Assembly (NCBI GenBank): GCA_000320545.1
Contig: ADNK01001076.1
Span: 193,139 to 257,138 of the forward strand
Origin: Bigelowiella natans CCMP2755
Taxonomy: Eukaryota; Protista; Cercozoa
DNA: 64,000 nucleotides
Direction of reading: 5' to 3'
Shown one piece after another: positions 1 to 64,000 of this stretch (positions are counted from its first letter, which is position 1; the number at the start of each line of letters is the position of its first letter). The notes beneath the pieces are model-generated. The model was given only the letters and a program-made list of their open reading frames with translations, did no database searches and was not told the DNA's origin. The position numbers and the translations under genes are program-made.

Positions 1-7250
<7,250 letters not shown>

Positions 7251-8536
7251 AAAAAGATAATATTTTTCATTGTATTTAAAACCAAGAAGGGAGGAGAGAT
7301 GTAGAGGTTATTCATCATAGAAAATGGTTGCTATTTCACAGTTGTGTAGTGCTTCTGCATTGTGTGCAGCATCTAGTCATGTTGAACATTCCTACCGTTA
7401 AGGAAATTGCTACTGAGGTACAATAAGCGCTGAAGATGAATGTGCGCAATGCACAGCGCATCTTTAATGCAATGCTTGGCGAGAGGGAGAGGGGATATAG
7501 TGAGCGGTAGTGCCAATGGCGGACGAGAATTGGAATAGATGTGTTGTTTGTCGTTTGCACATCATGATGATGATGTAACTTCCTGGGTACAGTGAGATCA
7601 AAATAAATCTATGACGCAGAAGTGAAACACCATCAATTTGTCACACATGTGATTTGTGTTAATTGTGCGTCCCCTGGAGTTGTCGTCGCCTCACCATCAT
7701 GAGTGCAGTTTTGTCGCAACATGGTTTCAGCATTCAGTCGTAGGAAGTCTCGGGAAGAAGTGTGCGACAATCTATGGCCGCTATTTTCGGGAATTAATAT
7801 TTCTCGGTCCACAGTCCACCAGCCCCGGGCGGGGGAGCACGCCTAAAAAGTACTTACACGTTCCCGAACATCATTTCATTCAGTTCTCTTTCAGTGTCTA
7901 AAACAACTGAACACGGGGGGGGGGAAGGAGGGGTAAAATGCACTTTTTTGTAAGTTAAAACTCGAGTTGTGCCTTGTATGGCCGAAAACAGATATTAAAA
8001 ATGACCTCATTGTACTCTAAAGACGAAAATTGACATCGAGCCATTTGTCCATATATCGTCTTTCCCACCCCCAATCTTCTACCTACTGCCTATTAAAATC
8101 ATATGAACCCTGCCATGGTGTTTGTGGGGGGGTATGACAGCTTGTGTTCCGCTCCGGGTTCCTTTCATTCATCGCTCATTTTGATGAGATGAATAGACGA
8201 TGTGTCAATGTACACTTCTTGTCCGTTCTCCTTAGTGCATGATACTGTTATTCTCTAACGCATAATTTTATGTTATTTGTTGTAGCATGCAGGCGCGGGA
8301 GGGAACTGTTGTTCTGCTTTCTACCTCATTCAATTTCGTTGAATTGGAGAGGTATGTCAACAAAGTGAAAAGCGTCAACTTGTTGTTATGTGTATGGTTG
8401 TTTTATATATTATGTGTATATCATATGCATGGGGTGGGAATTGAACCCTCCAGTGTGCCATATCACACCATGGTGGGTGTAATCACTACTCATGTTAATA
8501 ATGGAACGTGCATGCATGCCAAAATCGATTATCACA

Positions 8537-10983
8537 TTATGTAGTTGATCCTTCATCTCGGATTTGGTGTAATCCTGTCAAATCCCATGTGTAGTCCATC
8601 ATTGTCCATCCTCTACGGGAGAACCTTGCTGCCCTGGCTTCCATGAGTTCATCTCCCAACACTGGCTTGCAAGGTCTCATTATTTTATTCCGTATGTCAT
8701 CGATTACTTGACCTTCTTCTACCATAGGATTGCGCCACGGAATTAACAACATTTCCCCCTCCATGGCACAGAAAGCATTTGCTGTGAATCTAGATTGCAT
8801 GACGTCGTTCGTTTCAATAGCATCCACTACACTACATGCCCTCTCCAAGGTTGATATGTTTTTCACTTTGTCATCGGTAGCATGTCTGTTGACAGGGAAG
8901 AGACCAGTCTTCCTCCATGCTGAACAGATTTTCTCAGGATCTGTCTTTTCAAAATCATTCCATGCCTTTGTGATACATGAATTGAAATCAGGTTGGGAAT
9001 AATGCATGGTGGGATGCTGTCGTCGCCATCGTGTGATGTGTGATCCCACAAGGCCTTTCAGGATGGAATTGGGCCCATTATCGTTGGGCGCCAGCCATCC
9101 TGAGGTGTGTGAAGGTATGTAAACAAAATACACACGGTCGCACACCATTTCCATGTAAGCATCGGGTATCATATGAGAATCATGTCCATCGATGATCAAT
9201 ATTAAAGGTCTCGTGCTTGTGCTGTTCGCTATTCTTTTGACCACACCGATGAACCCTTGTTTCGTCATGTATCCAGCTTCATTCGTGAAGAACCAGAAAT
9301 CGGAACGAAGACCGAGCATGAGAGAAGAGTTTCCCCCTGTGGCGGCGGCTTGATGCACTATGCAGGGAGGGACTCTCAAACTACCATCAGCTGATGTGAA
9401 GAACAAACAGGTACTCCAAAATGGAGCTTTCTCTCCCGTCGTCCGTTCCTGTCGTTTCTCTTTCCCTCTTAGCTTGAACAGGAATTTTCGAGATTTGCCT
9501 CTAGGATCAAATCCTATTTCATCACCATACAGGAAATGCTTGGCTGCCATTTTATCGTCTTCCGGAATGCTTCCAGCACCTCGAAGGTCGTTTACGAACG
9601 ACTCATATTTGTCAAAGAAAGCATTTCTGACCGCAGGCGTTGCTTTCCTGGCTCGCTTCAAGTCGATTTTGGATCCTCGTGCAGTAGTGAGTTGCAGGTG
9701 TTCACAATCGTGATCCTTGAATATTCTGTTAAGTCGTTTAATGCATCTCCCTATGTACGTTCTGTGCAGCGACATGAGGCTACTCGATCGGTCAGGATAT
9801 TTTTGTTGCAAGAAACTTATGGCCATGTCACGAGCGCCGGCGCTTGTCATCGGTAGCCCCATGTCGGCAAGGCCTGTCCAGATGCGGGCCAAGAGCATCA
9901 ACTCTAGGTCCGTCAGCAGCGGCGGAAGATCGCCCCTGGACTTGGGAGCTGCATCCTTTATGAGGGATCGCAGAGTGTTATCGCTGAGCTGTGAGATGCT
10001 GTGCACGGAGTCATTAGCGCCGATGTGGTTGTCCACGGCTTCCAACACCGCTTGCAACCGGCGTCTAATGGTCCGTTCAGGCAACCGCTCAAGCCCGCGA
10101 TTGCGCCTGTCATTCACTAGCTCCCGAAGTTTTGTGCCTCTAACTCGCAGCAGCAGTGCCTCTTGCATGTCGATCTCGGTCCAAGGGCGACGTAGGGGCA
10201 TCCCTGAGGTGTGTATTACATGCACATCACATTGAGTTGTCCATGTTAAAAACATCTCCATGTTCACAATAGACACAGTAACATGATGTACATTGCACAC
10301 ATGTGACATCACGTTGTCCATGATTGTGAAAAAATTTTTCTAGTGATTGGGTTAACATGATGTTACGCTGTCGTAATTTTTTTTTGCTAGTTGGTTTGGT
10401 GCACCTATGGCTCGTCGGACGGCGACGTCGGCCCGGACCCTGCCTCTTGCTACCCCCTGGAGGCTCTTCCGTGCCTTGTAAATGGAATGGCGGGAAGTTC
10501 CGTGCTTCCGGGCTGCTGCTTCGACGGGGACACCGTCACAATGGTGATTCAGCAACGCCAGACGGAGGGCTTCGTCGTCGCTGGACTTGCGGGTGAGTTT
10601 GTTTTTCATCACCTGTCACCATGCAAATCACAATTAGCAAAAAACGGCCCCCTCCAATCGCACCCGCCAGTGGCGGGTGCGATTGGAGGGGGCCGTTTTG
10701 CGTTTGGGGGTGCACACCTTGTGAATTTTCCGTTCTGAGCTCCCTTCCCAGTCCACGTAGGGTCGCCATGCGTAGACCTGGTGAGACTTCACTGTTTTGT
10801 GCTCAGACAGCACTCGATCCAAGGAACGACCGTGTTTCCACTTGGCGATGAGAGCGCAAGTCAAGTCTTCCGCTTCCTCACCAGTCTCGGGCACACGAAC
10901 AGGCGGCTTCCCAGGTGCGACGTTTTCCTTGCCAGTGCGTGCCCCACCTGACGGTGCGCACAGCGTCAAGCGTCAAGCGTCAT
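8537..10983 (-). mobile_element. pogo/Fot1-like DD35D transposase gene, probably 3 exons (about 10983/10969-10718, 10612-10405, 10203-8537); likely inactivated at 5' end
   Basis: Catalytic motifs LYGDEIGF, ILIIDGHDSH and IPSHTSGWLAPND, with 35 residues between D2 and D3. psq-like RRPWTEIDMQEAL, then CENP-B-like HTH (LLTDLELMLLARIW..LADMGLPMT). Two phase-compatible GT-AG introns link upstream HTH-like ORFs. Element termini not resolved. Confidence 0.85.
10641..10699. repeat. Perfect 29-bp inverted repeat with 1-nt spacer (59-bp hairpin) within predicted transposase intron 1
   Basis: aaaacggccccctccaatcgcacccgcca-g-tggcgggtgcgattggagggggccgtttt. Confidence 0.95.
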
Positions 10984-12412
10984 GCGAGGTGCTGGGCACC
11001 ACCAGGGGGTTCGATTCCCCCCTCGCAAAAACAACAACCACACATTGCAATGCTTGGAGCGTCTCACTGAGTGGTCACTCGCACACGACCACAACGAAAC
11101 GAGGAGGCACCTGTTCGGCGAGCAACAGCACCAATTCGTGCAACTTTTGTTGACGTCAGGCAAGCCAAAGGAGAGCGGCCGCGTTTGCGAGACTAAATGC
11201 GTTCAGATCGGCGTGAACCTGACAAAAACAACGCGAAACAACCACTTCCAGTCGTCATGCAATTCGACCCCCACGTGCTCCTCACACGAACGGCGTGCAA
11301 CGCATCGGAACAGGATCGACCACCTGTTTGACCACCAAGAGTGGGGAAGGACGATGACCGGGTGACACGTCGATGGCGTGAGGTGCATGGGGTTGCTTGG
11401 AAGGGCATCACGAGCGTGTTTGTGCAGGTGTCTGGAACGAGCAGGTGCTGACAGTGATCGATGTGAGCTCAATTGACCGTTGGTTTTCGTTTGAATTTGG
11501 TGCAAAATTCAAGCAGGAAACATTGGGCAAAAGTTTGACCCTCAATTTCATCAAGTGCGACAATCAGAAAATGACAAATTGCTGACGAAGGGAAAAAATG
11601 CGACAGATCTAGTGGGATGTGCCACCGGCAAAAACATTTCAAAAGTGGTCGGAAAATTCGGAGAATTGTTTCGGCCATGCAATGCAACAGGCCCTTGTCG
11701 CGGAAACAGTTTCGGCCATGCAAAGAACGAGATGCAACTTTTCGGCCACTGTCGGTGACACACTTCCTAGTGCTTGTCGTGGCAGCAAGATCCAGGCCTT
11801 TTCAACTTTTTCCAACGATGCTGCAAATGATTGCGGCGAGCGATTTTGAGTTGGCTGCAATTTGCGTCATGAGCCTTTTCATCAGCGCTTTTCATTTTCT
11901 TCGGCCGATTTTTTTTCACAACTTGAATTGCCAATTTCCGTCATCTTTTTCTTGGTGGTCCCCGCTCTGATGAGGTTCCAGCACATGCAAACTTGATCAA
12001 TGCTTCACTCAAATTCAAATTCAAATTCTGATGTCTTCCAACACTTTGGAAATGCAGCTCATCATTGTCATTGTTTCATTGTTCCATTGTTGACCTTGGT
12101 TGTTCGAGTGGCTTTCTCGTGGCATCGCGCTGCGCCGATGCTGGGATGCGGAAATGGGCGGGGGGATTTTCGGTTGCGAGGGCAGCTTTCCTCCCCATCC
12201 CTGAATCACACGTTGACCGTTGGGATGGACAGACGTGTCACTCCGCTAGTCTGGCCACAGGGTGACTCAGTCAACTGACAAAGCCAGAAAGGACGCTTGG
12301 ATCTGACGTGAAAGACTCTTCCCGGGTGAAGACGTTGCTCAGATTGAACAACTGACTCGAATTGATTCACCCAGAGAAGTTTTGCACCTGATGAACTTGG
12401 ACGGCAAAAAAT

Positions 12413-12925
12413 CAATGAAACAATGAAACAATGATGAAGAACCACGTTTCCAAAGTGTTGCAAGACACTTGCAGTGTGCAAAGTGCAGTGCCTTGAACTG
12501 GTTTCAGTGAGGACTGTGACTGGCAAATCAACCAGCTGGTTTGCCAAAATGGCATGACTTGGTCATTGAGAAGCAATGACACTAGCGGCAAAATTCTGAC
12601 GGCGCAAGACCTCCACTCTGACGAGCAAGTCCCTGGACAAGCCAAGCAAGTGGGGACCTTGGTGTGAGGGCACGTCGTCGTGTTGGTTCGTCCTCGACAA
12701 ACCAGTCGATGGAAAAAAAAAAACCAAAACCTCCAACTGCCGAAGCTTGGGGGAAAATTGAAGCAGTCAAGCCAACCAGGCCAGCAGTGTTCACCACAGC
12801 AGCCAACGTGTCAACTTTCAGTCCTCGTTGAAGTTTCAGCTCGAGGCACTCTGCTGGTCTGCTGGCACTGCCAGACTGCGCCATCACTGCTTTGCAAGCG
12901 TCGTGCAACACTTTGGAAACACGGT
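12413..12925. mobile_element. MITE-like element with degenerate inverted termini; further copies of the terminus at 12034-12089 and 34632-34730
   Basis: tttccaaagtgttgca.gac.cttgca...gtgcct.ga.ctg..ttca..gaggactg occurs at 12447-12516 and inverted at about 12819-12920; the same motif is at 34658-34730. Confidence 0.6.
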
Positions 12926-13644
12926 CGATCACCAAGTTTCTTTCTTTTTTTTTTCCCACGATCCTTTCACAACTCCGTCAAACCCGGTGACGACTGGGGT
13001 TTGCACAAACCGTGCTTTGCGCGCACGGCCTGGCGCGCTCAATCGTTGCAATTGGACATTGGAAGCACACTGGAGCACTGTTTGAAGTTCAAACTTGAAC
13101 TTTTTTTTCGAACCTCAGCTTCAAAACCTCACTTTTCAACGCCTGCCAGCGGGCGCAAACTGGCAAATTGCAAAGTGCTTGCCACTTCTGAAACAGCTCT
13201 GAAGCTTGTTCAGTTGCACTTGCTGTGCCACAAGTTTTGCAAGCTTGCGAGGGTGTGCGCAAACTGGCTTTGCATCACTGTGAACTTTCAGCACACGAAC
13301 GCACACACCCGCGCGTGTCCACGCGCGGGTGCGTGCTCATTGATGCCGCGCTCACTCTGGAGTGCACATCGCCCTCGTCAGCGGCGTGTGCCAATGGGGA
13401 TGTGCCGAGCACGCACTTGCTCTCAGCTGACGAGTTGAGAGACGTGCTGGCGTGGCCCTGCCGACAGGAGGTTCCCGTGCTTGCTTTGCCTTTGCACCGG
13501 GCCTGTCGAGACAGCGATCCACGATTTTGTCGTCCTGCGCTGAATCGGGCATTGGGGTGCACGCGTGCATCGCTGCTGCGTCAACAAGAGGCGGTTGAAC
13601 GTGATTCGTGAAAGTGTTGATGAAACTTGAACTGTTGTTGTGGT

Positions 13645-13712
13645 GTTTGAGTTGTGTTGTTTTTTGAGTTGTGTTTGCCTTTTGAGTTGTGTCAGTGTTT
13701 GAGTTGTGTTTG
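13645..13712. repeat. Short tandem repeat, about 18-bp period, 4 copies (tttgagttgtgt core)
   Basis: Four copies of tttgagttgtgt visible. Confidence 0.8.
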
Positions 13713-15863
13713 CATGCAAGCAGGCTCAAGTTGCGCGTGCGGCTCCGAGAAAGCTTTCACTTGCAATGCAATCGTGCGTTGGTTTCACTGTGCGTCGTTC
13801 CGACGCCTTTGTCGTGCTGCGCGAACGCTGTGACGTGCAGAACGTTCCTGGACTTGTCCGAGAACGCGGCCAGCCCGAGGAAGAACGAGAGAACTTTCCA
13901 ATGACACAAGAGCAGCGAGCTGCACGTTCTCAGACCGTTCCGTGCTCCAGCGCTGGCACGTGCGTCACACGTGCCGCGAGGCGTCCCAGGACGTCGTGTG
14001 TCGCGAGTCACGCACACAACGGACGTCGCTCTGCCTGTCCGACCGTGGCGTGCAAACTGAGCGCCACGTTGAGAGGTCATGCCACTCGTCACAGGTTTGA
14101 CGGAGTTGTGTTTGCGAGGAGTTCCTGCTTTGCGTTGTGGCTTGTTGAGGGTGTCGAGCTCGGTGTTCCAGTGTTGATCTCTTTGGCTTCGGGTTCAGAT
14201 GAGACTTGGTCCCTGGAGTTGCCTGGCTTCGGCGCAGACTTGAGGACTTGTTTGCGAGCAACACACTTGTGCGTTTGCAGGTTGCGAGCTGGTGCGTTGG
14301 ACGCGACAAGGATGAGACGCCTGGCCGCTTTGAAAACCTCGTGGTCTTCTGGGATGTCTTCTGCTTCGAGGAGTTGCGTGAGGTGGACATGCACGTCGCA
14401 AGCTGCGGCGCAGGTGAGGCAATTGTTTGTCCAGCTGTCCTCGAATGTTTCTTTGACATCTCTGAGCCTTTCTTTGTCAGGAAACCAAGGGAACCGAGCG
14501 TGGGAGGCTTCGGAAGATCCGTGTGGAGCTGGAGTTTTTCACGCACTGCCTTGTGCGTGCTGGGCTTCAACGGCAAAAAGTCCGTGGCAGAGGCAATGCG
14601 AAGTCCTGCAAACTTGTCCAGACCAGCTGTTTCTTCTTGCTCCAAAGTTTCTGTTTGACGTGGGAGGTCCAAAAGGGAGTTGTTCTTTTCTTCTGCTGCC
14701 CCGGCTAGCCGGCTGCTGCATGCTGCCACTGGGCCAGGGAGTCGTTGTCCTGTTGGGACATCCAGTGATGGCGCCCAGGGCTGAAACGACCGGGGCGTTG
14801 GAAATCTGATCGTTTTCAGGCAATTTTGCAATGCCATTAGCGCCAAAACGTGCAATGTCTGGAAATCGCATCATCATTGTGAGCTGGGATGGCACAGCAA
14901 CAACAGCGATGGAGCCGAAGATTTGCCGAGTGAGCAGCGGGCGCAGCGAGCTGCGAGCGCAAGGCAAATGGAGAGGTGTGAGGTGCAGGTGCACGCGTTG
15001 TGTGCAGACGCTGTCCAGCTAGGTGTGCACTGTCACACGATGCACACATGCACATCGTGTGTGTGCACGTTTTTGTTGTCCGCCACACCTGGACATGCCA
15101 CGCTAGCACACGCGTGCTGTCGCTGTCTAGCTGTGTGTTGTGTCTGTGTGTGCATGGCGTCGATCTGACATGCCTGCGCACGTCTAGCTGTGCTGCGCTG
15201 AGCACGATGAGATCATTGTGTTTGTTTGTTTCGGCGATCATGTGCTTCATGTTGGCAAATTTGGCATTGTTGTGGCGGCCATGGCACGTCACACCACATG
15301 CATTCATTGTGATGAGCACATCTAGACATGAACGTGACCGAATGCACATGTTCTGTTCATGCAACTTGCTTGGTCACATGTGTTGGGCGCAACCAAGCCT
15401 AACTCTAGGCTCGCTGTGGCTTCATTCGCAATTGCCTTTGCACGCAACAACGAAGTGCTCCTCTGGAATGAGAGCACAGAAATTGGCGATTGTTTGCTTT
15501 GCACAACGAAAAAGATGACTAATTACTTGTAAGGTTTTGGAACTTATCAAATTGAATAACTTTTACCAAAAACACCTTTTTGTTCTCATCACAAATATGC
15601 CATACGTTCATGATCACTTGCCTGATCATAACGGTGCATCTCCACATTGTGTTGTGTGCTACTAAGCTACATCGTTGCTATGCCGATCAATTAGGACATC
15701 TTGTAGGTAGTCGTTTCAAAAAATATTTGCTTCACGCAAAACCGCATGCATAGGGAATGTGTGCTAGTTTTGTGGGTTGTGTGAAAGTCATTATATGATA
15801 TATAGAAGACGTAATTCCAGATAACCATTGCCGCCTTGGAGTGTAATGATCGTTTGGCTTTCT

Positions 15864-17270
15864 TTAATAATCGTCCTGGTCGGATTCCTCCTCTTCGTCT
15901 TCATCGCCATCATCATCATCATCTTCAGCCTTTTTCGATTTTAATAGAGCCAAAAACAGCAGCAGCGTTGAGGAAAAATTAACATTTTCTTCTCTTCGTA
16001 GTACAGTCATCCCCGTTATACACTATCAGTGCACCACCTCTCGAATGTGCACGACACACACACACACACACACACATACACACTCACGTAGTATATATGT
16101 ACGCAGTAGCCCCTAATGCAGCACAGTGATAACTGTGATATTATCATTATTATGCATTCACTTCAACATGTCATATTACTTCCCAGTCATCGTCCAACAA
16201 CCAACAATTATTACCTCAATTTCTGGTTCTTCAAGAGCAGTTAACAATTTCTTTAGTTTGGCAAATTCCTGATTGATGAATATAGAAATGTATTATGAAT
16301 GCAACCGAGAGCAGACGATGATGTGGTAGTGTTGTGCTAGTAGGTAGCAGTATTTATAGTAGTAGTAGTAGTAGTAGTAGTAATAAGTAGTAGTAGTGAC
16401 CTCTTTCCACTTGAGATTCCTAACACCCGACCCTAGCCACAAACAAGAGAAAGTATACCAACAGAAGAAGAAGAAGAAGAGGAAGAAACAACAGAAGATG
16501 ACGATGAAAATATATCATTCAAAAAGAGGGAAAATAATGTATCATCCTGGTACTGCAACGTACTGCTTGATTGATTGATTGCGACAAGCAGCAGCTACAG
16601 CATATATTTACCCCCTGCTACTACTACTATCATTATTTTTATTAAATGTTATTAAATTATATATTAAGATGATAATTTATTATCAATACGACTAGGAAAG
16701 AAAGGAGACCATTTAGTCGTCATCGTCGTTCGTACAACCAAAAATAAAGTTGCTTCAATACGGCGGTCAACGACGATATCAGTCGGAGAATACAATCCAA
16801 AAATGAGGGAGGGAGGGAGGGAAGGAGCAACTTCCATTTCTTTCCTCATCCTTTTCTCCTTGTTCTTATTCTTCTTCTTTGTTCTATTTATTATACTCCC
16901 CCTCCCCCTATTCTTCCTCTTCTTCTTCTTCTTCTTCTTCTTCTTTCTTTTACGACCTCCATAGGGATCCGTGGGAACTGTCGTTGTCAAATGTGACTCC
17001 CAGAAAGGTAGCTACATACATACATACATACATACATACAACAAATCATTGGTTGATTTATTTTTTGGTGTGTGTGTGTGTGTGTGTTGATTCAATCCTT
17101 CGATCGATAACACCCAGTAGTACTGATCACATTACAACGCACTTTCCACCACACATACATACCACTGCCACTGCTTACACTACTCAACCAAGAAAGAAGA
17201 AGAAGAGGAAGAAACATCAAGGGGGGGTAGGGGGGGGGACTTGGGAAATCTTATGCTATTGTAGAGTACA

Positions 17271-33649: not shown

Positions 33650-34850
33650 TCGATTCTAGCTTTATTTGCATGCGCGCGCCTGTCTAGCTGTCACACGCGG
33701 GGAATGCACGGTAGTAGGCATGGAGAGCAACCCAACCCAATCAAAATCGATGTGCACACAGATTCAGCACACCATGGAACAACCGCATGCTAACATGATG
33801 AGCTGAGCGAGCTGCATGCGATTGCGTGTCACGCGCGCATGAGCTATGCTAGTGAGTGCAAGAACATCGTAGTGCAACGCGTGCTTGCGAGTTATTAGCA
33901 GACAGCACACCTCTAGACCTCCCTTCTGCGCGATGTAGCGAATGTGGCTCAGCTAGACAAAGCCGTCTAGCCGGCGTCACAAACACGATCGACGGCCTGC
34001 GCCACACGCGTGAGCTGCGATTTGCGTGGTTGATGCATGTGAGTTTTCAAAGTCACTGTTCTGTTTGAAATGAATGGCATTCGTTCAGCGAAAATCACCA
34101 CTTCTAGACCTCCATTCGACTTGAACACGACTGAACATGACAGCACTCGAACGAACGTGGTACAGTGGCAACAGTGGACACACTCGGTGACGTCACGTTC
34201 AACTGTTCGCAATGCAAGCATGCAAGACACCTCTGACTTGCAGTGCACGAAACGCAGTGCCTCGAACTGGCTTCTGGCTTCAGTGAGGACCAACTGGTGA
34301 AGACCAGCAGATTTTGAAGTTGGCACACTGGCCATTGCTGAATTGTGGAGCAGTGTGACTGGCAGCAACGTGGCGGTGACACGAACAAAGCAACAACTCT
34401 GGACCTGCTCTGAGCAGGAACTCCTGAACTGGTGAAAGCTGCACCCATGCGACGGTCCACAGTCGGGTCGTCCGAGGGAGCACCAAGTGGGACTTCGGTT
34501 TTGCTGGAACCAGCCAGCCAGAAGCGTGAAAAAGGAGGAGCAGGCAGAAGAGCCAGGAACAAGCTAGACAAAGGTGCAAGAGCTAGAGAGGGCCACTCTC
34601 ACACTTGAGAAAAATCTGTTCCTCACAGAAGCAATGAAACAATGATGATGAACTGCATTTCCAAAGTGTTGCAAGACATTTGCAGTGTGCGAAACGCAGT
34701 GCCTCGAACTAGCTTTGGTGAGGTCCAACTGGAGAATCCAGGAGGCATTTGACAGCATCTTGAGTGAAATCAGGGTGCGCACCGTCCACATCTCTCTCAA
34801 GTCTCCTGCGCATGTCAGGAGATGTGCATGCATCTCGGGATGATCTCGGG
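33600..34850. other. TpA-depleted repeat block
   Basis: 33961-34850 contains 5 CTAG and 1 GTAC as the only TAs; shares a repeat family with 12.0-12.9 kb. Confidence 0.9.
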
Positions 34851-38765: not shown

Positions 38766-39393
38766 CGATGAATAACGAGACAGTGACGGTGCTGATACTA
38801 CTGCTGATGAATGCGAAGGCGATAGTAACAGTGATGAAGATGATGCTTTCTCGTTAGTTTGGGAGTCTTGGCTTTGTTTTGAGGTGCTGTCCGCTGCAGC
38901 TTGCTTTTTCCCCCCTTGTTCTTGTTCTTGTTCTTCTATTTGTATTGGGTTGTCGTCGAGAAATGCTACTGCTTGTTTCCATTCCTGAGAGGCTTCTAGA
39001 GCGTGCATCTAAAGAGAAGTCAATATTATTACTCTTATAAAATTATGTTGTTGTTGTTGTTGTTGTTGATGATGATGATGATAATGGGGAAGAAAATTTC
39101 GAAGGATAAATGAAGAAAGAGCATCATTGGATGAACAGGTAGTAGTAAACGACGTCGCGATCATCATCATTATCATCATCATCATCATCATTAGTCACAC
39201 TCACATACTACCATACTGAGCACGGCTTTGGAGTCAGGTCCTCCTCCTCCTCCTCTTTCTTTTTCCATCTCGAGCATCATTCTCTGAAATATCTTTAGAG
39301 ATTGTTCCCATCGACCCAATCTTCCTGCTAGCTGAATGGCTGCTGTGCGGACTACACGTGCATCTGCAGCAGCACCTACTGCACTGCTACTCT

Positions 39394-39425
<32 letters not shown>

Positions 39426-42242
39426 TGATAATTATGTTGTTGTTGACGCCGACGACCAACATTATTTCCACTTGGACTGTTTTTGTTGTTGTTGTCGTTA
39501 TTGTGTCGTCTTTTGTGATTTTGATCGCCAAGGCGGTGATGCTTGTTTTCAAACTGCTGCTCACTGTCTTTTCTCACCGCAGTAGAGGAGGATGAGGAGG
39601 ATGAGGAGAATGGGTCAAATATATAGTTATTCTGTTTGTTGCTGGTGGTGGTGCTGGTGGTGGTATGATGATCTTCTTCGAACCATTGATATACCTCTAG
39701 TGCATCCTCGTAGAGACCGTGTGATGATAATGCCTGAGACAATAGGAATGTTAGTAATAACAATTATCATAATAAGAAATGAAGATAACGAATGACGAAA
39801 GATGATAGGGATTGCCGTAGGAGGAGAAGGAAGTGAAAGGAAGATGAGGAGACTACAAAGTATGTTGTGTGATGTACCATTATGTTATGATAATGACGAT
39901 AATGGGTATGAGATTTTGGTGACGACGTCAATGACGACAATATACATTAACTGAAATCAAATTTATGGTTCTTTCCTAAAAAACATCATCATCATCATGA
40001 TCATCATCATCATCATCATCCCAAAGATGATTAAGAAGTGAAGTAGTCACTCTCTTCTTCTTCTTCTTCTTCTTCATCTTCTTCTAGCACAAACCTTCAT
40101 AGTAAGTGAGTAGGTGTAGGCGTCCATGGTGCTAGTACAGCTACTGCTACTGCTACTGCTGCTGCTGCTGCTACTACTACTCCTTAGGTATCTTAGCATC
40201 TCTTTGGCCTCCCTTCCTGTGCAGCTGTTTCCTCCTCCTCCTCCTCCTCCTCCTCCTCCTCCCTCTTCGCAAGCAAGTACACGCATGAGTGCATTGAGAG
40301 CTTCTGTTTTGGTTTCAGCATATCGTTTTTGTCCCTGTCCGTCAAGAAGAGGCGGTAGTAAATGTATTGCTTCTTTTGCCAACCTTGCAAGGGAAGGAGA
40401 TAGTGTCTGAGGAAGTGCGGCACTGCTGGTGGAAGAAGAAGATGATGATGGTGATGATGGTGATGATGATAATGGCAATGAAGAGGAGCTTCGTTGCTTA
40501 AGGCGTGCATAAACAGCAGCAGCAAGGGCAGGATGTCCCCCTCTTCCAGATACTACTTCGCTGCTTTCTCCAGCAGCAGATGTGATTGAGGAGGAGGAGG
40601 AGGAGGAGGAGGAGGAGGAGGAGGGGGAGCAGGAATTGATGACCTCCACGTAAGTCGTAGTATCAGGTGTAAGGGCATGTTCTGATAGCTTCCATAGCAC
40701 TTTGAGTGCCTTGTCCCATTCTCCATTGCGCGCATAGCACTTAAGCAGCCCGTTATATATCACTGTATTCGGTTTCACGGTAGCTGCAGCAGCAGATTCT
40801 TTAATAAGCCTTTCCGCTATATCGGCACGATTGTTATTTGAGAGAGCTAATACGACCGCACCTAAGGCTTTGACATCTGCAGCAGCACTACTCAACCCCT
40901 TTCTTTTTGTTGTTGTTATAGTCTCCTGAAGATAATTGGTAATATGATGAGTAAGTGAGGGAAGGCTGTACACGACGACGACGAAAACACGGTAATATTA
41001 CGGATAATAATTGCTAAAACCGTAGGAAGAGAAGAAGAAAAAAAGGAAATAGTGCGGGTTTGTTGCTGCTGCAGATAATGATGATGACGATAATGATGAG
41101 AAGAAGGGGAGGAGGAGGAAAGGAGAAGAGTCATCAGACACGACGACAAACTCTTGCGCTGAAATTTATTCGGTAAGAAATGACAATCAAAATAATAGAG
41201 ATTATGATACACAAAGTCGTTGATGTATATTTGTGCATCACCTCTTTGGCATAATTATTGTTGTTTCTCCTGCTCCTTTCAGATGATGATGAAAGGTGTA
41301 ATTTTCTGTTGGCGTGAATACTCTCAAGAGATCGGTACGTTTGCAGTGCCTTAACAAGAAAAGAAAGGTGAGAGGTGGAGGTGAGCAGGAATTTAGGACA
41401 ATAACTTTTATTTCTCGAAATAATTAATTATGAGGAAAGCTAGCATATAAATATTATGTTGACAGTATTGATTAGGATGATGATGATGATCAGCATACCG
41501 ATTCCCAGTCGCCCTTCTCCGCGTAGATAGGTATCATGGCTGTAAGAGTTACAGCATTTGCGGATATGCCTTCTTGTCTCATCCTCATATACACTCTCCT
41601 TGCTGCATCAGGCTGGCCATTTTGCACACAAGCTGTGATCATTGTGGAATATGTGTACACGTCTGGCTGCGATGAAGCTTCTCGCATCAATCCCGCAACA
41701 CCAAGTGCACGTTTCCACATGCCTCCTCTTGACATTGCATGTGCAAAGGCATTGAAGACGTAGGGAGAGATAATGACCTCGTGTTGATGACCACCATCAC
41801 AGTGATCTTCAAAGTATTTCAACGCATGCTCCCAGACACGCGCCTTAGCACATGCAGAGAGTACCTAAATCGTTATAAAGATAACATCATATTTATGTTT
41901 TTACTTCTTCTGGATATATGGATGGTAAGAGCATTGATGGTGAGATTGTAAAATCCACAAAAAGAGGATATGATACCGATGAATGTGAATAACTGTCTGG
42001 CGTCAGGCTTGGTCTCTTTCTTGCCATTTTTCTCATCTCCTTAGCGAGCTGTAGCGCTTGAAACCATTGCCCAGACTAAGTGATAAATGTGGTATTATTA
42101 TCAGAGTTTGTAAGAATAGTGGTGGTGGTAGTAGCAGTAGTAGTATTAATAGCAGTAGGGAACAACGATAACTACAACACCTACTGCTGCTACCAGCTAA
42201 TACTGCTGTCACACTACACAGCATGTTTACTACTACTACTGT

Positions 42243-50399: not shown

Positions 50400-51700
50400 A
50401 AGCAGCCGTAAATAGGGCATCAAGGTGTGGTGTGCATGGCGTACGAATGCATGTGCATGTGTAAGACGTACCTAGGTACGGGTGCAATGCAATCAAATTG
50501 AATTTGTTCAATGGTTATCCTCATGTAGCTGTGCAACAAGCGGCCACAGTGCTAATGTTTAATCTGTTGGTCTCCGCTATGATGTGTTTCATGCAATCAA
50601 ATGCATGTTATTTCGGTCTTGAATGTCGCACATTTCGTGTAGCAGGGCACGTTTCCTTCTCAAGGCAATAAGTCAATGTTTTCGTTTCATCGTCACGCAT
50701 CACCACGTGGCAGTGAGCTGATTCCTCAAGCAGCGTTGATGTGTGGCGTGCAATGGGCAAGGAAGCAAATGATCCACATCTTCAATGACGTTGCGCACGC
50801 TGCGCAGCGTGCTTTGTCTGCAGTGCACAATCCTCTTGAAAGTTTGAAGTTGCCACTGTTGCCGACACCCCCATGCTAGCATGATGTAGCAACACTAGGC
50901 AGCTTGAGCCTGTGTGCGCACAGCTCTTTTGTCTTGCACACATTGAACCGATGATCCAGCAGGGGATGGATGCACAAGAACTGGAAGGCATGAATGCCCA
51001 ACTCTAGATCACCCTAGACCTGCTTGCCTGCATGCATGCCAGAATGCCCATGCATGTACCTACACTGAGTGCATGAGACTTATTGCGGACGTTCGCGTGC
51101 ATGCGCCCCAACATTTCAGCCACGGTAGCGCTGCTACCCAGATGCATCGCAGACGCATGCATGCATGGTCTAGATGGCATGCACGTAGCTCATTAGCTCG
51201 AGTGTGGGTATCTCATTCCACACGTGCACATTGCAACAACTACGTGCACCGTTCATTCACAACCTACATGTCATCTAGATTGTGCGGTGCGCATGCACCT
51301 CAGTGCATCGTGATTAGGTGCTGGATGAGTTGGCTGGCTAACCCAAGCGCCGCTGCTACGATGAACACACATGTCATCAACTCAACTCATGTCTAGATCC
51401 ATGCGCATCGCAGTAGTTGCGTTCAGAGTAGCATCAAATTTGTTGCTAACAAATTGTTTGAGAGTTTGTTCAGTTTTAAACATGGCGGCTTTTCTTCGGT
51501 GAGTCGACACATTTTGTCAATTATGCATGCTAGCATGCAACCGATCTAAAGATTCTGTTGAATTTTTCTGGAATCATGTGAAACTGTAGTGCCAAACATC
51601 AATTTGGTGCAACAGTTTAATGATGTTTGCCGAACAAGGTCCAACTTTACAACACGTGATGCATGCGATGCAACAACAAAATTTTTACTTCTAAATTTGT
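50400..51700. other. Partially TpA-depleted block containing a probable non-LTR retroelement fragment
   Basis: Surviving TAs are mostly CTAG/CTA/TAG; minus-strand VIEDVDHLLPCPLHA resembles a LINE C-terminal zinc knuckle. Confidence 0.75.
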
Positions 51701-62322: not shown

Positions 62323-62989
62323 ATGGTTCAGCTGTCTCGCATTTTCGGTTTACGTATTCTCTTCTTAGTTGCTAACTTAGCCATCTGCATACTGGGAGAT
62401 ACTGGCACTAGCCATACCAATAGAAGAGACTCTGTCAAATTTAGAGAAATCATGAACTTCGCCAAGCGTCAATACTCATTTGCAACTCCCTCTCAATATG
62501 AGCCAAACCCTTACCAGGTCAAATAGTCCGTAATTCTGGAAAAAAGTTGAAGTCATTGGTTTATAATCACAATGTTGCAATTCAGCATCCTCCACCTCCA
62601 TCGCTTCCCGCAGTGCCCCCTCCCCCAGCTCCAATGTTTGTATCTGAAGGTGCCAAGTAACATTCCGCTAGTTTGTGTAGTGCATTCTAACAGAAGCAAC
62701 AATGATATCAGCATCATACGGCCAGTTCGGTGGCGCGTTTCGACAAACCCATCCTTCGTGGCCAATTCAAGGTCCAATTGTGTTGGAGTCCATATTTTGA
62801 GTGAATGGATCATTTGCGTTTGCTTTTATTTCAGTTTTCTTTCCATTCATCTATGAAGAAGCCTTGCGATCTAGCATCAAAAATTCTAACCCTGATGCTA
62901 TTTCAGGCTCACAGAGAACAGGGGATAGTCCCTGGTTCCATGTTGATCCATATGCAGCTAAACCAGTGAATGAAATGGCACAACCTTGA
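62323..62989 (+). CDS. Small spliced gene with signal peptide and Pro-rich segment, unknown function
   Basis: MVQLSRIFGLRILFLVANLAICILG leader, then short introns and exons PPPPSLPAVPPPPAPMFVSE and SSIKNSNPDAISGSQRTGDSPWFHVDPY. Confidence 0.45.
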
Positions 62990-63813
62990 TGGGACACATC
63001 ACAACGTGACCATTCACAGGTCATCATGGTGGCTGAGTTTGAATTGCAGATGTGGAACACTTTGACACAATGAAAACAAACAGAATGAAATCGTCAACCC
63101 GTCTGCATGCATCATGATGAAGTGTTGCATTGCATGGTGAAATGGACGAACAGCAGTGATGGGGCCATTGGTGTTCAACAGCGTTCAAACAGATGCGCAG
63201 AATGCTGCGATGCAAGTATGCACAACCAGTTCAAAGCCGCGCACATGGCAGGTTTCGTGGGTTTCGATCAAAGTTTCAAATGGAATTTTTTGCACAATTC
63301 TTTTTCCCAATTCACCTGCTGCGTGCCGAGGCAAACGTTTTCCATTGCAACATTGTCGCGCGTGTGCATCATGTGATGCATGCGTTTCTGCACGTTTTGT
63401 GCAAAAAAATCGCCACCATTTGAAAAGCGAGCACATGTGGAAACCCACACACACATCTGCAACATTGGGACACCGTGGAGCTCGCGCACTTGCATGATTA
63501 AAACGCATCAAAAGATGGCTTGCCGTAACCATCACGCTGGCCGCCCACGTTTGCACGATTCTGATCGATTTCACTCAACAGCGCGTGAGCACGCGTGCAC
63601 ACAAGCGCCCGCGCTGCAATGAGCGAACGTGTGTGGAGGGGAAACGAGCACGTGCATGCACTTTCATCGAAAAATGATGCGACCCCAATGCACATGTCAC
63701 ATTGTCAAAAAAGGTGTCATTGGTCCACTTTGAAGAGCGCAACCAGCCCTTTCGATTGATCCCAATCTCAGCCCCACCTGATCTCTAGTTGCCAAGAAAA
63801 CAACTCACTTTTT
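62962..63813. other. TpA-depleted block
   Basis: 4 TA counted in about 850 bp of AT-rich sequence. Confidence 0.9.
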
Positions 63814-63814
63814 T

Positions 63815-64000
63815 GGTAGGGTAGGTTAGGTAGGTAGGTAGGTAGGTAGGTAGGTAGGTAGGTAGGTAGGTAGGTAGGTAGGTAGGTAGGTAGGTAGGTA
63901 GGTAGGTAGGTAGGTAGGTAGGTAGGTAGGTAGGTAGGTAGGTAGGTAGGTAGGTAGGTAGGTAGGTAGGTAGGTAGGTAGGTAGGTAGGTAGGTAGGTA
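63815..64000 (+). repeat. (TAGG)n tandem array running off the window end
   Basis: More than 180 bp of GGTA repeats, starting with TAGGG/TTAGG variants. Confidence 0.95.

What the first reader, a model, noticed from the sequence alone, without database searches (positions are those of the whole stretch)
8537..10983. Mutation gradient across one transposase: HTH exons show His/Cys for Tyr while the DDE exon is largely spared
The 5' exons read AAARKHGTSR, LLNHHCDG, WKHGRS and LSEHKTV, where psq/HTH motifs often have Tyr (AAKKYG); TAY->CAY/TGY gives exactly these residues. Intron 2 (10204-10404) is partly eroded, which also falsely extends the ORF by 40 codons. The catalytic exon retains its Tyr and TA. 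Inference: mutagenesis spreads from the repeat core and fades over a few hundred bp, damaging DNA-binding domains through Tyr loss rather than by creating stops as RIP does.
Basis: partly seen in the sequence, partly recalled or inferred. Interest (0 to 1): 0.75.

Follow-up and report, generated by a model that had tools for sequence, protein, structure and literature searches.

The report
Transposase at algal TA-mutator edge
In what is likely the alga Bigelowiella natans, a transposase gene straddles the edge of a 5-kb block stripped of TA letter pairs, likely by an already reported host mutator; its catalytic exon looks spared only as protein, because its silent TA sites are depleted too, which likely means that selection kept the coding ones.

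Summary
The DNA contrast is real; the gradient story mostly is not. The window matches Bigelowiella natans proteins, where a 2026 preprint already reports TpA>CpA/TpG hypermutation. From 10480 to 15523, 0 of 598 TA/CA/TG sites outside CTA/TAG contexts are still TA (background 0.35). The gene is a spliced, 3'-truncated pogo-type DD35D transposase. Its DDE exon is not spared: codon-junction TA is 8 against 19.9 expected (p=2e-4), flat along the exon, while Tyr and ATA-Ile codons are kept, a sign of selection. Tyr frequency is equal in the 5' exons (3/145) and the DDE exon (9/466); the helix tyrosines survive. Whether the His/Cys were Tyr is untested: no intact close homologue was found. Both edges fit steps better than fades. 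The right edge falls on a neighbouring gene's poly(A) site (15523), beyond single-copy DNA. CTAG resists the mutator; this scan noted that before on other pieces of this genome. Verdict: a new locus of a known process, with two new clues (selection filter; edge at a poly(A) site).

The parts
10480..15523 (.). Block with no TA outside CTA/TAG contexts (0 of 598 unprotected sites; 7 of 283 half-protected; 11 of 73 CTAG-class)
10718..10947 (-). Exon 1 of the three studied (HTH-like by eye, no informative Pfam hit). Frame is open to 10972; the 5' limit at about 10947 is inferred from the gene model P0083; further exons lie upstream (putative RNA contig joins 11221 to about 11328)
10613..10717 (-). 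Intron 1 (GT..AG), holding a 59-nt near-perfect hairpin at 10641-10699; its one surviving TA lies in a branch-point-like CTAAT at 10635
   Evidence: splice in putative RNA run X15; hairpin; TA list; branch-point reading is inference
10405..10612 (-). Exon 2, HTH domain (HTH_23). His of KHG = 10504-10502; His-His-Cys = 10546-10538; surviving Tyr of SIYK = 10480-10478. The left edge of the TA-free block falls here
10204..10404 (-). Intron 2 (GT..AG), about half eroded; open in frame, which adds 40 false codons to the next ORF
8801..10203 (-). Exon 3, transposase part: a further HTH-like stretch, then DDE_1 with D227 (9523), D338 (9190), D374 (9082) = DD35D; silent TA depleted, replacement-only TA kept; two near-identical genomic copies
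8537..8800 (-). In-frame tail taken from another multicopy gene (P0002/P0003 family); replaces the roughly 300 C-terminal residues that full-length homologues have
   Evidence: (loose ends at 8788 and 8800)
12311..14119 (.). High-copy repeat core of the block; other copies read CTAG at 12522 and 12533 where the window reads CTGG and CCAG, and CA at 13246-13247 where the window reads TG
15326..15523 (.). Single-copy-depth stretch that is nonetheless fully eroded (0 of 32 unprotected sites are TA)
   Evidence: depth 93 against 91 for the single-copy contig in X14; counts
15523..15863 (-). 3' untranslated region of an expressed, unidentified host gene; non-templated poly(A) begins at 15523 (27 reads), the right edge of the block; 16 of 63 unprotected sites are TA

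Best explanation
A spliced, 3'-truncated pogo-type DD35D transposase gene straddles the left edge of a 5-kb repeat-centred block that has lost every TA outside CTA/TAG contexts, likely through the TpA>CpA/TpG hypermutation reported in Bigelowiella natans, and its DDE exon has lost most silent TA sites while keeping Tyr and ATA-Ile codons, likely because purifying selection filtered the damage. Mechanism, step by step. Shown: TA is lost and CA/TG gained; paralogous copies differ by TA/CA/TG; survival ranks unprotected < CTA-or-TAG < CTAG; the block covers high-copy repeats and single-copy DNA next to them; the dose drops in a step inside exon 2 and at the neighbour's poly(A) site. Inferred: a host adenine-directed mutator (the preprint proposes an ADAT-type deaminase) acts on a chromatin-defined domain seeded by the repeats, not on paired duplicates as RIP does; it is slowed about seven-fold per strand by a C before or a G after the TA, so CTAG is slow on both strands; transcription of the host gene bounds the domain. 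The transposase took a first, partial dose over its whole length while still under selection (as an active element or a useful gene), and its 5' part took a saturating dose. All of this predates the duplication into the two to three copies now present, which share the same eroded 5' exons. The His/Cys in the HTH exons may well be former Tyr (about 70% for KHG), but the gene shows no net Tyr loss.
For: Species and process: P0001 (jgi/Bigna1/132464) is 97% identical; preprint 10.64898/2026.01.13.699255 reports de novo TpA>CpA/TpG mutation and DDE-endonuclease enrichment among TpA-depleted CDS. Direction: 14 of 27 transitions listed between the window and other copies are TA/CA/TG changes, all 14 in unprotected context (p=0.002), from 40 of 50 rows shown; P0002>P0003, 22 of 32 differences fit one TpA transition against about 8% expected. 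Context: main block 0/598, 7/283, 11/73; three other blocks 11/418, 22/190, 17/42; background 0.35, 0.385, 0.31; CTAG against half-protected p=1e-4 and 4e-5. Selection filter; 16 of 26 unprotected TA left in exon 3 are replacement-only; ATA is 11 of 27 Ile codons (host 20 of 70); at the DDE columns where at least 20% of homologues have Tyr the window never has His or Cys. Domain rather than pairing: the two-copy 1.8-kb exon-3 segment is only part eroded, single-copy 15326-15523 fully. Edge: step at 15520, poly-T loose end at 15523 with no genomic A-run behind it. Lower dose near edges: half-protected survivors 4/44 left, 0/194 centre, 3/45 right; CTAG-class 5/51 centre, 6/11 right.
Against: One locus only; the edge/poly(A) match is a single case with about 20-nt resolution. 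The 5' exons are transcribed and spliced yet fully eroded, so transcription is not a sufficient barrier (expression looks low, and the transcript may come from another copy). CTAG-class survival is 0 of 11 on the left flank, which does not fit a lower dose there; the four left survivors may be held by selection. The host baseline is eight long stop-to-stop frames, of which only two have a clear Pfam match. The silent TA loss in exon 3 could have been acquired elsewhere in the element's history. The step fit did not model coding against intron baselines. Which flank (C before or G after) protects was not resolved. Summed contig depth is only a rough guide to copy number. No enzyme, chromatin mark or mutation rate was measured here.
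Confidence: 0.7

Rival explanations
1. Mosaic or rearrangement: the sharp edges are junctions. The gene's 5' part comes from a heavily eroded copy and its 3' part from a lightly eroded one (crossover or gene conversion inside exon 2), and the right edge is an insertion point that also set the neighbour's poly(A) site.
For: Both edges fit steps. The locus is demonstrably chimeric: foreign tail at about 8800, an internally deleted third copy (P0083), and a diverged single-copy relative that matches in patches at 10122-10157, 10397-10439 and 10497-10530.
Against: The reading frame, HTH match and splicing run across the left edge. Slow-class survivors rise towards the right edge (CTAG-class 6/11 against 5/51, p=0.002), as for a local dose. 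No repeat end or inverted repeat marks 15523; one single-copy contig spans 14307-16044 and a putative RNA contig spans 15339-15931.
Confidence: 0.15
2. One reading: mutation spreads from the repeat core and fades over a few hundred bases, disabling the HTH domains by Tyr loss and leaving the DDE exon nearly untouched.
For: Unprotected TA falls 5' to 3' from 0 (above 10480) to 0.17 (intron 2, exon 3) to 0.27 (8300-8788). A width of 100-150 nt is not excluded. Tyr aligns with the second His of HHCDG in PDB 2lvs, and 6 of 11 subfamily homologues have Tyr and none His before the Gly of their conserved HTH turn.
Against: Silent TA in exon 3 is down to 0.3-0.4 of expectation and flat along 1.4 kb. 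Tyr frequency is unchanged and replacement-only TA codons are as frequent in the 5' exons (4/145) as in exon 3 (20/466), p=0.62. KHG occurs in an unrelated psq-type homologue, P0127.
Confidence: 0.08
3. The low silent TA of exon 3 is the element's native codon style from a former host, and only the 5' part was ever touched by the mutator.
For: General TpA avoidance exists in host frames too (odds 0.58); TA o/e of exon 3 (0.53) is close to the lowest host frames (0.58-0.59).
Against: The deficit is context-specific in the mutator's manner: unprotected junction TA 8 against 19.9 expected, protected 10 against 13.7 (n.s.); third-position AT content at non-TA sites equals the host's (0.61 against 0.63); non-coding intron 2 is also half eroded with CA+TG o/e 2.03.
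Confidence: 0.07

Closest known systems
TpA hypermutation of integrated viral DNA in Bigelowiella natans (Mettrop et al., bioRxiv 10.64898/2026.01.13.699255; read parts 1-4 of 5 of the text, supplements not seen)
   Same: Same species by protein match; same TpA>CpA/TpG signature; the preprint already lists DDE-superfamily endonucleases among TpA-depleted CDS, finds 124 clusters of depleted windows, and shows a single-copy target.
   Different: Its main text has no occurrence of 'CTAG', 'gradient', 'spread', 'boundar', 'flank' or 'tyrosine'. New here: flank dependence at this locus, step-like edges, an edge at a poly(A) site, erosion of single-copy DNA beside repeats, and silent-site loss with retained replacement sites in a transposase.
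Fungal repeat-induced point mutation (RIP) and RIP leakage (PMC9453070, passages read; PMC4858203, abstract start in listing)
   Same: Dinucleotide-specific transition hypermutation of repeats that also reaches adjacent single-copy DNA.
   Different: Opposite direction (A:T>G:C), removes TAA/TAG stops instead of making them, and does not follow duplication here: a two-copy near-identical 1.8-kb segment is only part eroded while single-copy DNA is fully eroded.
pogo superfamily transposases, DD35D type as in Fot/Fot-like and Passer (PMC7386202, passages read)
   Same: DDE_1 domain, DD35D spacing, N-terminal HTH domains; homologues P0010 and P0127 carry DDE_1 with HTH_psq hits.
   Different: At least three introns, truncated after the DDE domain and fused to another gene, no terminal inverted repeat found; family placement by tree not done.

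Membership tests
B. natans TpA hypermutation | Host is Bigelowiella natans | tested here: met
   97% identity to jgi/Bigna1/132464 and 100% over the tail to jgi/Bigna1/82893
B. natans TpA hypermutation | A>G / T>C transitions at TpA, giving TpA loss and CpA+TpG gain | tested here: met
   TA o/e 0.03, CA+TG o/e 1.45 in 10973-15000; 14 of 27 listed transitions between copies are TA/CA/TG changes; TG/CA switch at 13246-13247
B. natans TpA hypermutation | Targets foreign or mobile DNA | tested here: met
   DDE_1 transposase and high-copy repeats; but single-copy DNA of no known origin at 15326-15523 is eroded too
B. natans TpA hypermutation | Ongoing de novo rate about 1000-fold above background | not testable with these tools
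   Needs mutation-accumulation reads; contigs drop rare variants. The shared pattern of the copies suggests old events
B. natans TpA hypermutation | Adenosine deaminase as the cause (proposed only) | not testable with these tools
Fungal RIP | C>T transitions that create TpA and stop codons | tested here: not met
   TpA is lost, not gained; long stop-free frames in the block
Fungal RIP | Triggered by, and confined mainly to, duplicated sequence | tested here: not met
   Two-copy 8861-10668 only part eroded; single-copy-depth 15326-15523 fully eroded; depth is a rough guide
Fungal RIP | Leakage into adjacent single-copy DNA | tested here: met
   a resemblance only
Fungal RIP | Premeiotic timing, RID/DIM-2 dependence | not testable with these tools
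   none
pogo superfamily transposon | DDE_1 domain with DD29-56D triad | tested here: met
   PF03184 E 3e-9; D227, D338, D374 = DD35D; range from PMC7386202
pogo superfamily transposon | N-terminal DNA-binding domain of the CENP-B_N, HTH_ABP1_N, HTH_Tnp_Tc5, BrkDBD or HTH_psq type | tested here: inconclusive
   Exon 2 hits HTH_23, not these five; homologue P0010 has a weak HTH_psq hit
pogo superfamily transposon | Terminal inverted repeats and TA/TAA target duplication | tested here: not met
   No inverted match above 13 nt between 7001-8900 and 10901-12400; 3' end replaced by another gene. So: pogo-derived gene, not an intact element
pogo superfamily transposon | Placement in the pogo clade by phylogeny | not tested
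   No tree was built

The most novel reading that the evidence does not exclude
The algal TpA mutator works on a spreading domain that is seeded by high-copy repeats, runs through single-copy DNA and stops at the poly(A) site of an expressed gene, and a transposase lineage survived inside its reach by shedding silent TA sites while selection kept the coding ones: a transposon adapted to an adenine-directed genome defence.
Probability: 0.35. Interest if true: 0.7.

Novelty: new member of a known kind. Interest (0 to 1): 0.45.

Why it matters
The enzyme and targeting rule of the B. natans TpA mutator are unknown. This locus gives two cheap, genome-wide tests: do the edges of TA-free blocks sit at ends of expressed genes, and do transposases show silent-site TA loss with kept replacement sites (which dates the mutator to when the elements were still functional)? 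It also warns that a 'spared' catalytic exon can be a selection artefact, and that TA loss opens false reading frames through introns (P0011). The process itself is already in a preprint, and the CTAG rule was noted before by this scan.

Tried and rejected
Homologue search for exon 2 among longer proteins: none of 1186 candidates at E<=10. ESM Atlas for exon 1: no usable hit. Pfam on 16 long frames of the TA-free block: no hit above a curated cut-off; on the right-hand host gene's two short frames: none. A profile of 11 subfamily N-termini scored exon 2 only at E 0.065, too weak to fix columns. The diverged relative that covers the KHG codon (10497-10530) showed no listed letter there, but 10 of 50 rows and 191 of 231 rows were not shown, so this is no result. 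Two attempts to tell whether C before or G after the TA protects were inconclusive: product ratio CTGH/CCAH 1.12 against 1.03; strand-resolved silent sites 8/27 against 5/23. One search translated exon 3 in the wrong frame; its exon-3 numbers were discarded and redone. No indexed holder of the stretch is on record as RNA; X15 and X16 are guessed RNA, supported only by their GT..AG joins being absent from the DNA runs. Rejected: ordinary CpG decay as the cause (CG o/e stays 0.7-1.3 in the block); assembly artefact (independent runs' contigs match with 0-6 other letters); internal priming at 15523 (no A-run). Paper searches; only the one preprint describes this process. PMC12695648 (6mA) does not mention Bigelowiella or Rhizaria (word search); 10.1101/2025.11.19.688996 (ChlorV viruses) has no 'CTAG'. 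The base-editor papers were seen as a listing only and not used.
Full report
Source and context. The 555-codon frame 8540-10204 found four proteins; the best, P0001 (jgi/Bigna1/132464), is 97% identical, and two more carry Bigna1 names (species label Bigelowiella natans). The window is therefore very likely B. natans nuclear DNA. A paper search gave bioRxiv 10.64898/2026.01.13.699255, of which I read parts 1-4 of 5 (abstract to methods). It reports, from mutation-accumulation lines, about 1000-fold hypermutation of two integrated viral regions, all at TpA (TpA>TpG or CpA), notes that DDE-superfamily endonucleases are enriched among TpA-depleted CDS, and proposes an ADAT-type deaminase. A word search of its main text finds no 'CTAG', 'gradient', 'spread', 'boundar', 'flank' or 'tyrosine'. 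Its supplements were not seen; Table S2 bears on the flank rule below.

The gene. On the minus strand: exon 1 (10718 to about 10947), intron 1 (10613-10717), exon 2 (10405-10612, HTH_23 E 2.8e-6), intron 2 (10204-10404), exon 3 (from 10203; DDE_1 E 3e-9). Both introns are skipped with GT..AG ends in putative RNA run X15, intron 2 also in X16, and DNA runs X12 and X14 hold the unspliced form. The triad D227, D338, D374 gives DD35D, within the pogo range of PMC7386202 (passages). Full-length homologues run about 300 residues further (P0010 792 aa, P0006 760 aa). Here the frame switches at about 8800 into the last 83 residues of an unrelated multicopy gene, P0002. No terminal inverted repeat was found. 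Contig depth suggests two copies over 8861-10668 (35 and 171 against about 18 and 85-91 for single copies) and three over 10782-11257. P0001 is the second copy (6 amino-acid differences in 466); P0083 is an internally deleted third copy with the same His residues in exon 1. The collapsed contigs differ from the window by 0-6 letters, so the copies share one erosion pattern: the erosion came before the duplication (inference).

The observation at DNA level. TA o/e is 0.00-0.14 from 10501 to 15000, 0.45-0.65 over 8501-10500, and mostly 0.6-1.2 elsewhere. Sorting sites by flank sharpens this. Counting TA among TA+CA+TG, microsatellites masked: with neither C before nor G after ('unprotected'), 0 of 598 in 10480-15523; with one of them, 7 of 283; with both (CTAG class), 11 of 73; background 0.35, 0.385 and 0.31. 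Three other TA-poor blocks of the window repeat the order (11/418, 22/190, 17/42; CTAG against half-protected p=4e-5; these blocks were chosen partly by their unprotected gaps, so only the CTAG/half contrast is an independent test). The numbers fit a per-strand block of about seven-fold (inference). Direct copy comparisons agree: of 27 transitions among the 40 rows shown, 14 are TA/CA/TG changes, all in unprotected context (p=0.002). In the high-copy repeat most other copies read CTAG at 12522 and 12533, where the window has lost even these. Earlier notes of this scan report the same CTAG rule on other pieces of this genome; I had found it first and do not count them as support.

Is the DDE exon spared? 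No. Its remaining TA sit where mutation would change the protein. At sites with a silent outcome (third-base T before A; Leu/Val NTA), unprotected TA is kept 10:55 (0.15) against 0.61 at non-TA control sites; eight long host frames give 0.49 against 0.63 (odds 0.12 against 0.58, p=7e-5; against three GC-matched frames p=2e-4). Shuffling synonymous codons within exon 3 gives 8 unprotected junction TA against 19.9 expected (p=2e-4), 10 protected against 13.7 (p=0.12); the host frames give 0.72-1.14 of expectation. Only two of the eight host frames have a clear Pfam match, so that baseline is provisional; the shuffle does not depend on it. ATA is 11 of 27 Ile codons (host 20 of 70), nine Tyr remain, including conserved Y311 (93 of 136 homologues), and no column with at least 20% Tyr in homologues shows His or Cys in the window. 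Sixteen of the 26 unprotected TA left are replacement-only. The deficit is flat over the three thirds (0.09, 0.22, 0.17), and non-coding intron 2 is down by a similar amount (8/47 against 0.35, p=0.009). The simplest reading is a partial dose over the whole gene, filtered by purifying selection (inference).

Were His/Cys formerly Tyr? Possible, not shown. Tyr is 3 of 145 in exons 1-2 and 9 of 466 in exon 3; His+Cys 10 of 145 and 22 of 466 (p=0.29). Replacement-only TA codons are 4 of 145 and 20 of 466 (p=0.62). The survivors in the 5' part are three Tyr codons (two in the putative recognition helices, QVYAWR and SIYKAR; PDB hits keep the latter Tyr), one Ile codon at the splice donor, one protected Val codon and a branch-point-like CTAAT. 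No close uneroded homologue was found. In favour of Tyr: 2lvs aligns Tyr with the second His of HHCDG (E 0.0015); 6 of 11 subfamily proteins have Tyr, 4 Phe, 1 Leu and none His before the Gly of their conserved HTH turn (my reading of the alignment). Against: P0127 has KHG, and the first HTH of the subfamily shows Y, Y, H, C, T at the comparable place (my reading). That the process does convert Tyr in this genome is clear from P0002 and P0003: 5 of 6 Tyr become His or Cys and 22 of 32 differences fit one TpA transition, against about 8% by a crude expectation.

Gradient or step? For unprotected sites over 8804-11500 the best model is a step at about 10484-10500, inside exon 2 (35/211 below, 0/107 above); logistic widths of 100, 200, 400 and 800 nt are 1.5, 2.5, 4.3 and 6.8 log-likelihood units worse. 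On the right the step is at 15520 (0/144, then 44/142). The profile is thus saturation, a step, a plateau of roughly 50-70% loss at neutral sites across intron 2 and exon 3, then 0.27 in the foreign tail. Slow-class sites do show a dose falling towards the edges (half-protected 4/44, 0/194, 3/45; CTAG-class 0/11, 5/51, 6/11), though the left ones may be held by selection and the CTAG class does not show it on the left.

The core and the right edge. The block does hold repeats: summed contig depth in X14 is 31,576 at 12311-12511 and 1,200-5,900 over 12914-14119, about 160-170 over 14120-14923 and 93 at 15326-15526, against 91 for the single-copy contig 14307-16044 (the tool warns that such depth is no true copy number). 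The last 200 nt are single-copy by this measure and keep 0 of 32 unprotected TA, against 8 of 37 just beyond (p=0.006). In raw RNA reads (X21, about 6% read) 27 reads carry a non-templated poly-T before 15523, and depth falls from 81 to 3 there: this is the main poly(A) site of a minus-strand host gene whose frame stops near 15864. Its 340-nt untranslated region keeps 16 of 63 unprotected TA, so coding constraint does not explain the edge. Duplication is neither sufficient (two-copy exon 3 is part eroded) nor necessary (single-copy edge is fully eroded), unlike RIP; reach into single-copy neighbours resembles RIP leakage (PMC9453070, passages). It is one case, and the spliced 5' exons of the transposase are eroded despite some transcription.

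Verdict. A real footprint of a mutator already reported in this species, at a new locus. Novelty: new member of a known kind. Interest 0.45, for the selection filter and the edge at a poly(A) site, both testable genome-wide. Paper searches found no other description of this process or of these two features in the held library.

Noticed in passing
window 10641-10699: Near-perfect 59-nt hairpin in intron 1; depth changes at 10669 and the third copy (P0083) appears to jump from this hairpin to near the end of the DDE domain, so it may be a deletion breakpoint.
   Followed up: partly
window 11300-14900: Hint of a second, weaker A>G target in the most eroded core: ApT is depleted (o/e 0.38-0.46 at 12501-14500; log2 odds -1.0 to -1.9), and 7 of 12 non-TA, non-CpG rows where the window has G and other copies A have T next (p=0.03; 40 of 231 rows seen).
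   Followed up: partly
window 33660-34850, 50670-51480, 62950-63790: Three more TA-poor blocks with the same CTAG-sparing order; 34628-34723 is an 85% copy of the repeat at 12417-12512.
   Followed up: partly
window 12427-12621: Very high-copy short dispersed repeat, read in RNA run X21 mainly on one strand (depth about 50), with CTAG conserved in most copies. Family not identified.
   Followed up: no
window 8300-8800: Fragment of the multicopy P0002/P0003 gene family (weak PolyA_pol head hit in P0003, E 0.036), spliced in X15 (introns near 8352-8594 and 8674-8727); paralogues differ by TpA transitions and would make a clean set for mutation-context counts.
   Followed up: partly
window 63815-64000: (TAGG)n array running off the window end, intact beside an eroded block; its TA is in the half-protected TAG context.
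   Followed up: no
window 7300-7800: Mild loss of unprotected TA (0.11-0.21 against 0.35) left of the gene; possibly another lightly eroded repeat.
   Followed up: no
window 39194-40997: Minus-strand frames with PPR repeat hits: an ordinary host PPR gene.
   Followed up: no
window 2016-2516: Minus-strand frame of Ser/Pro/Thr/Cys tandem repeats (SPTSSAPSC-like), mucin-like linker of a host protein.
   Followed up: no
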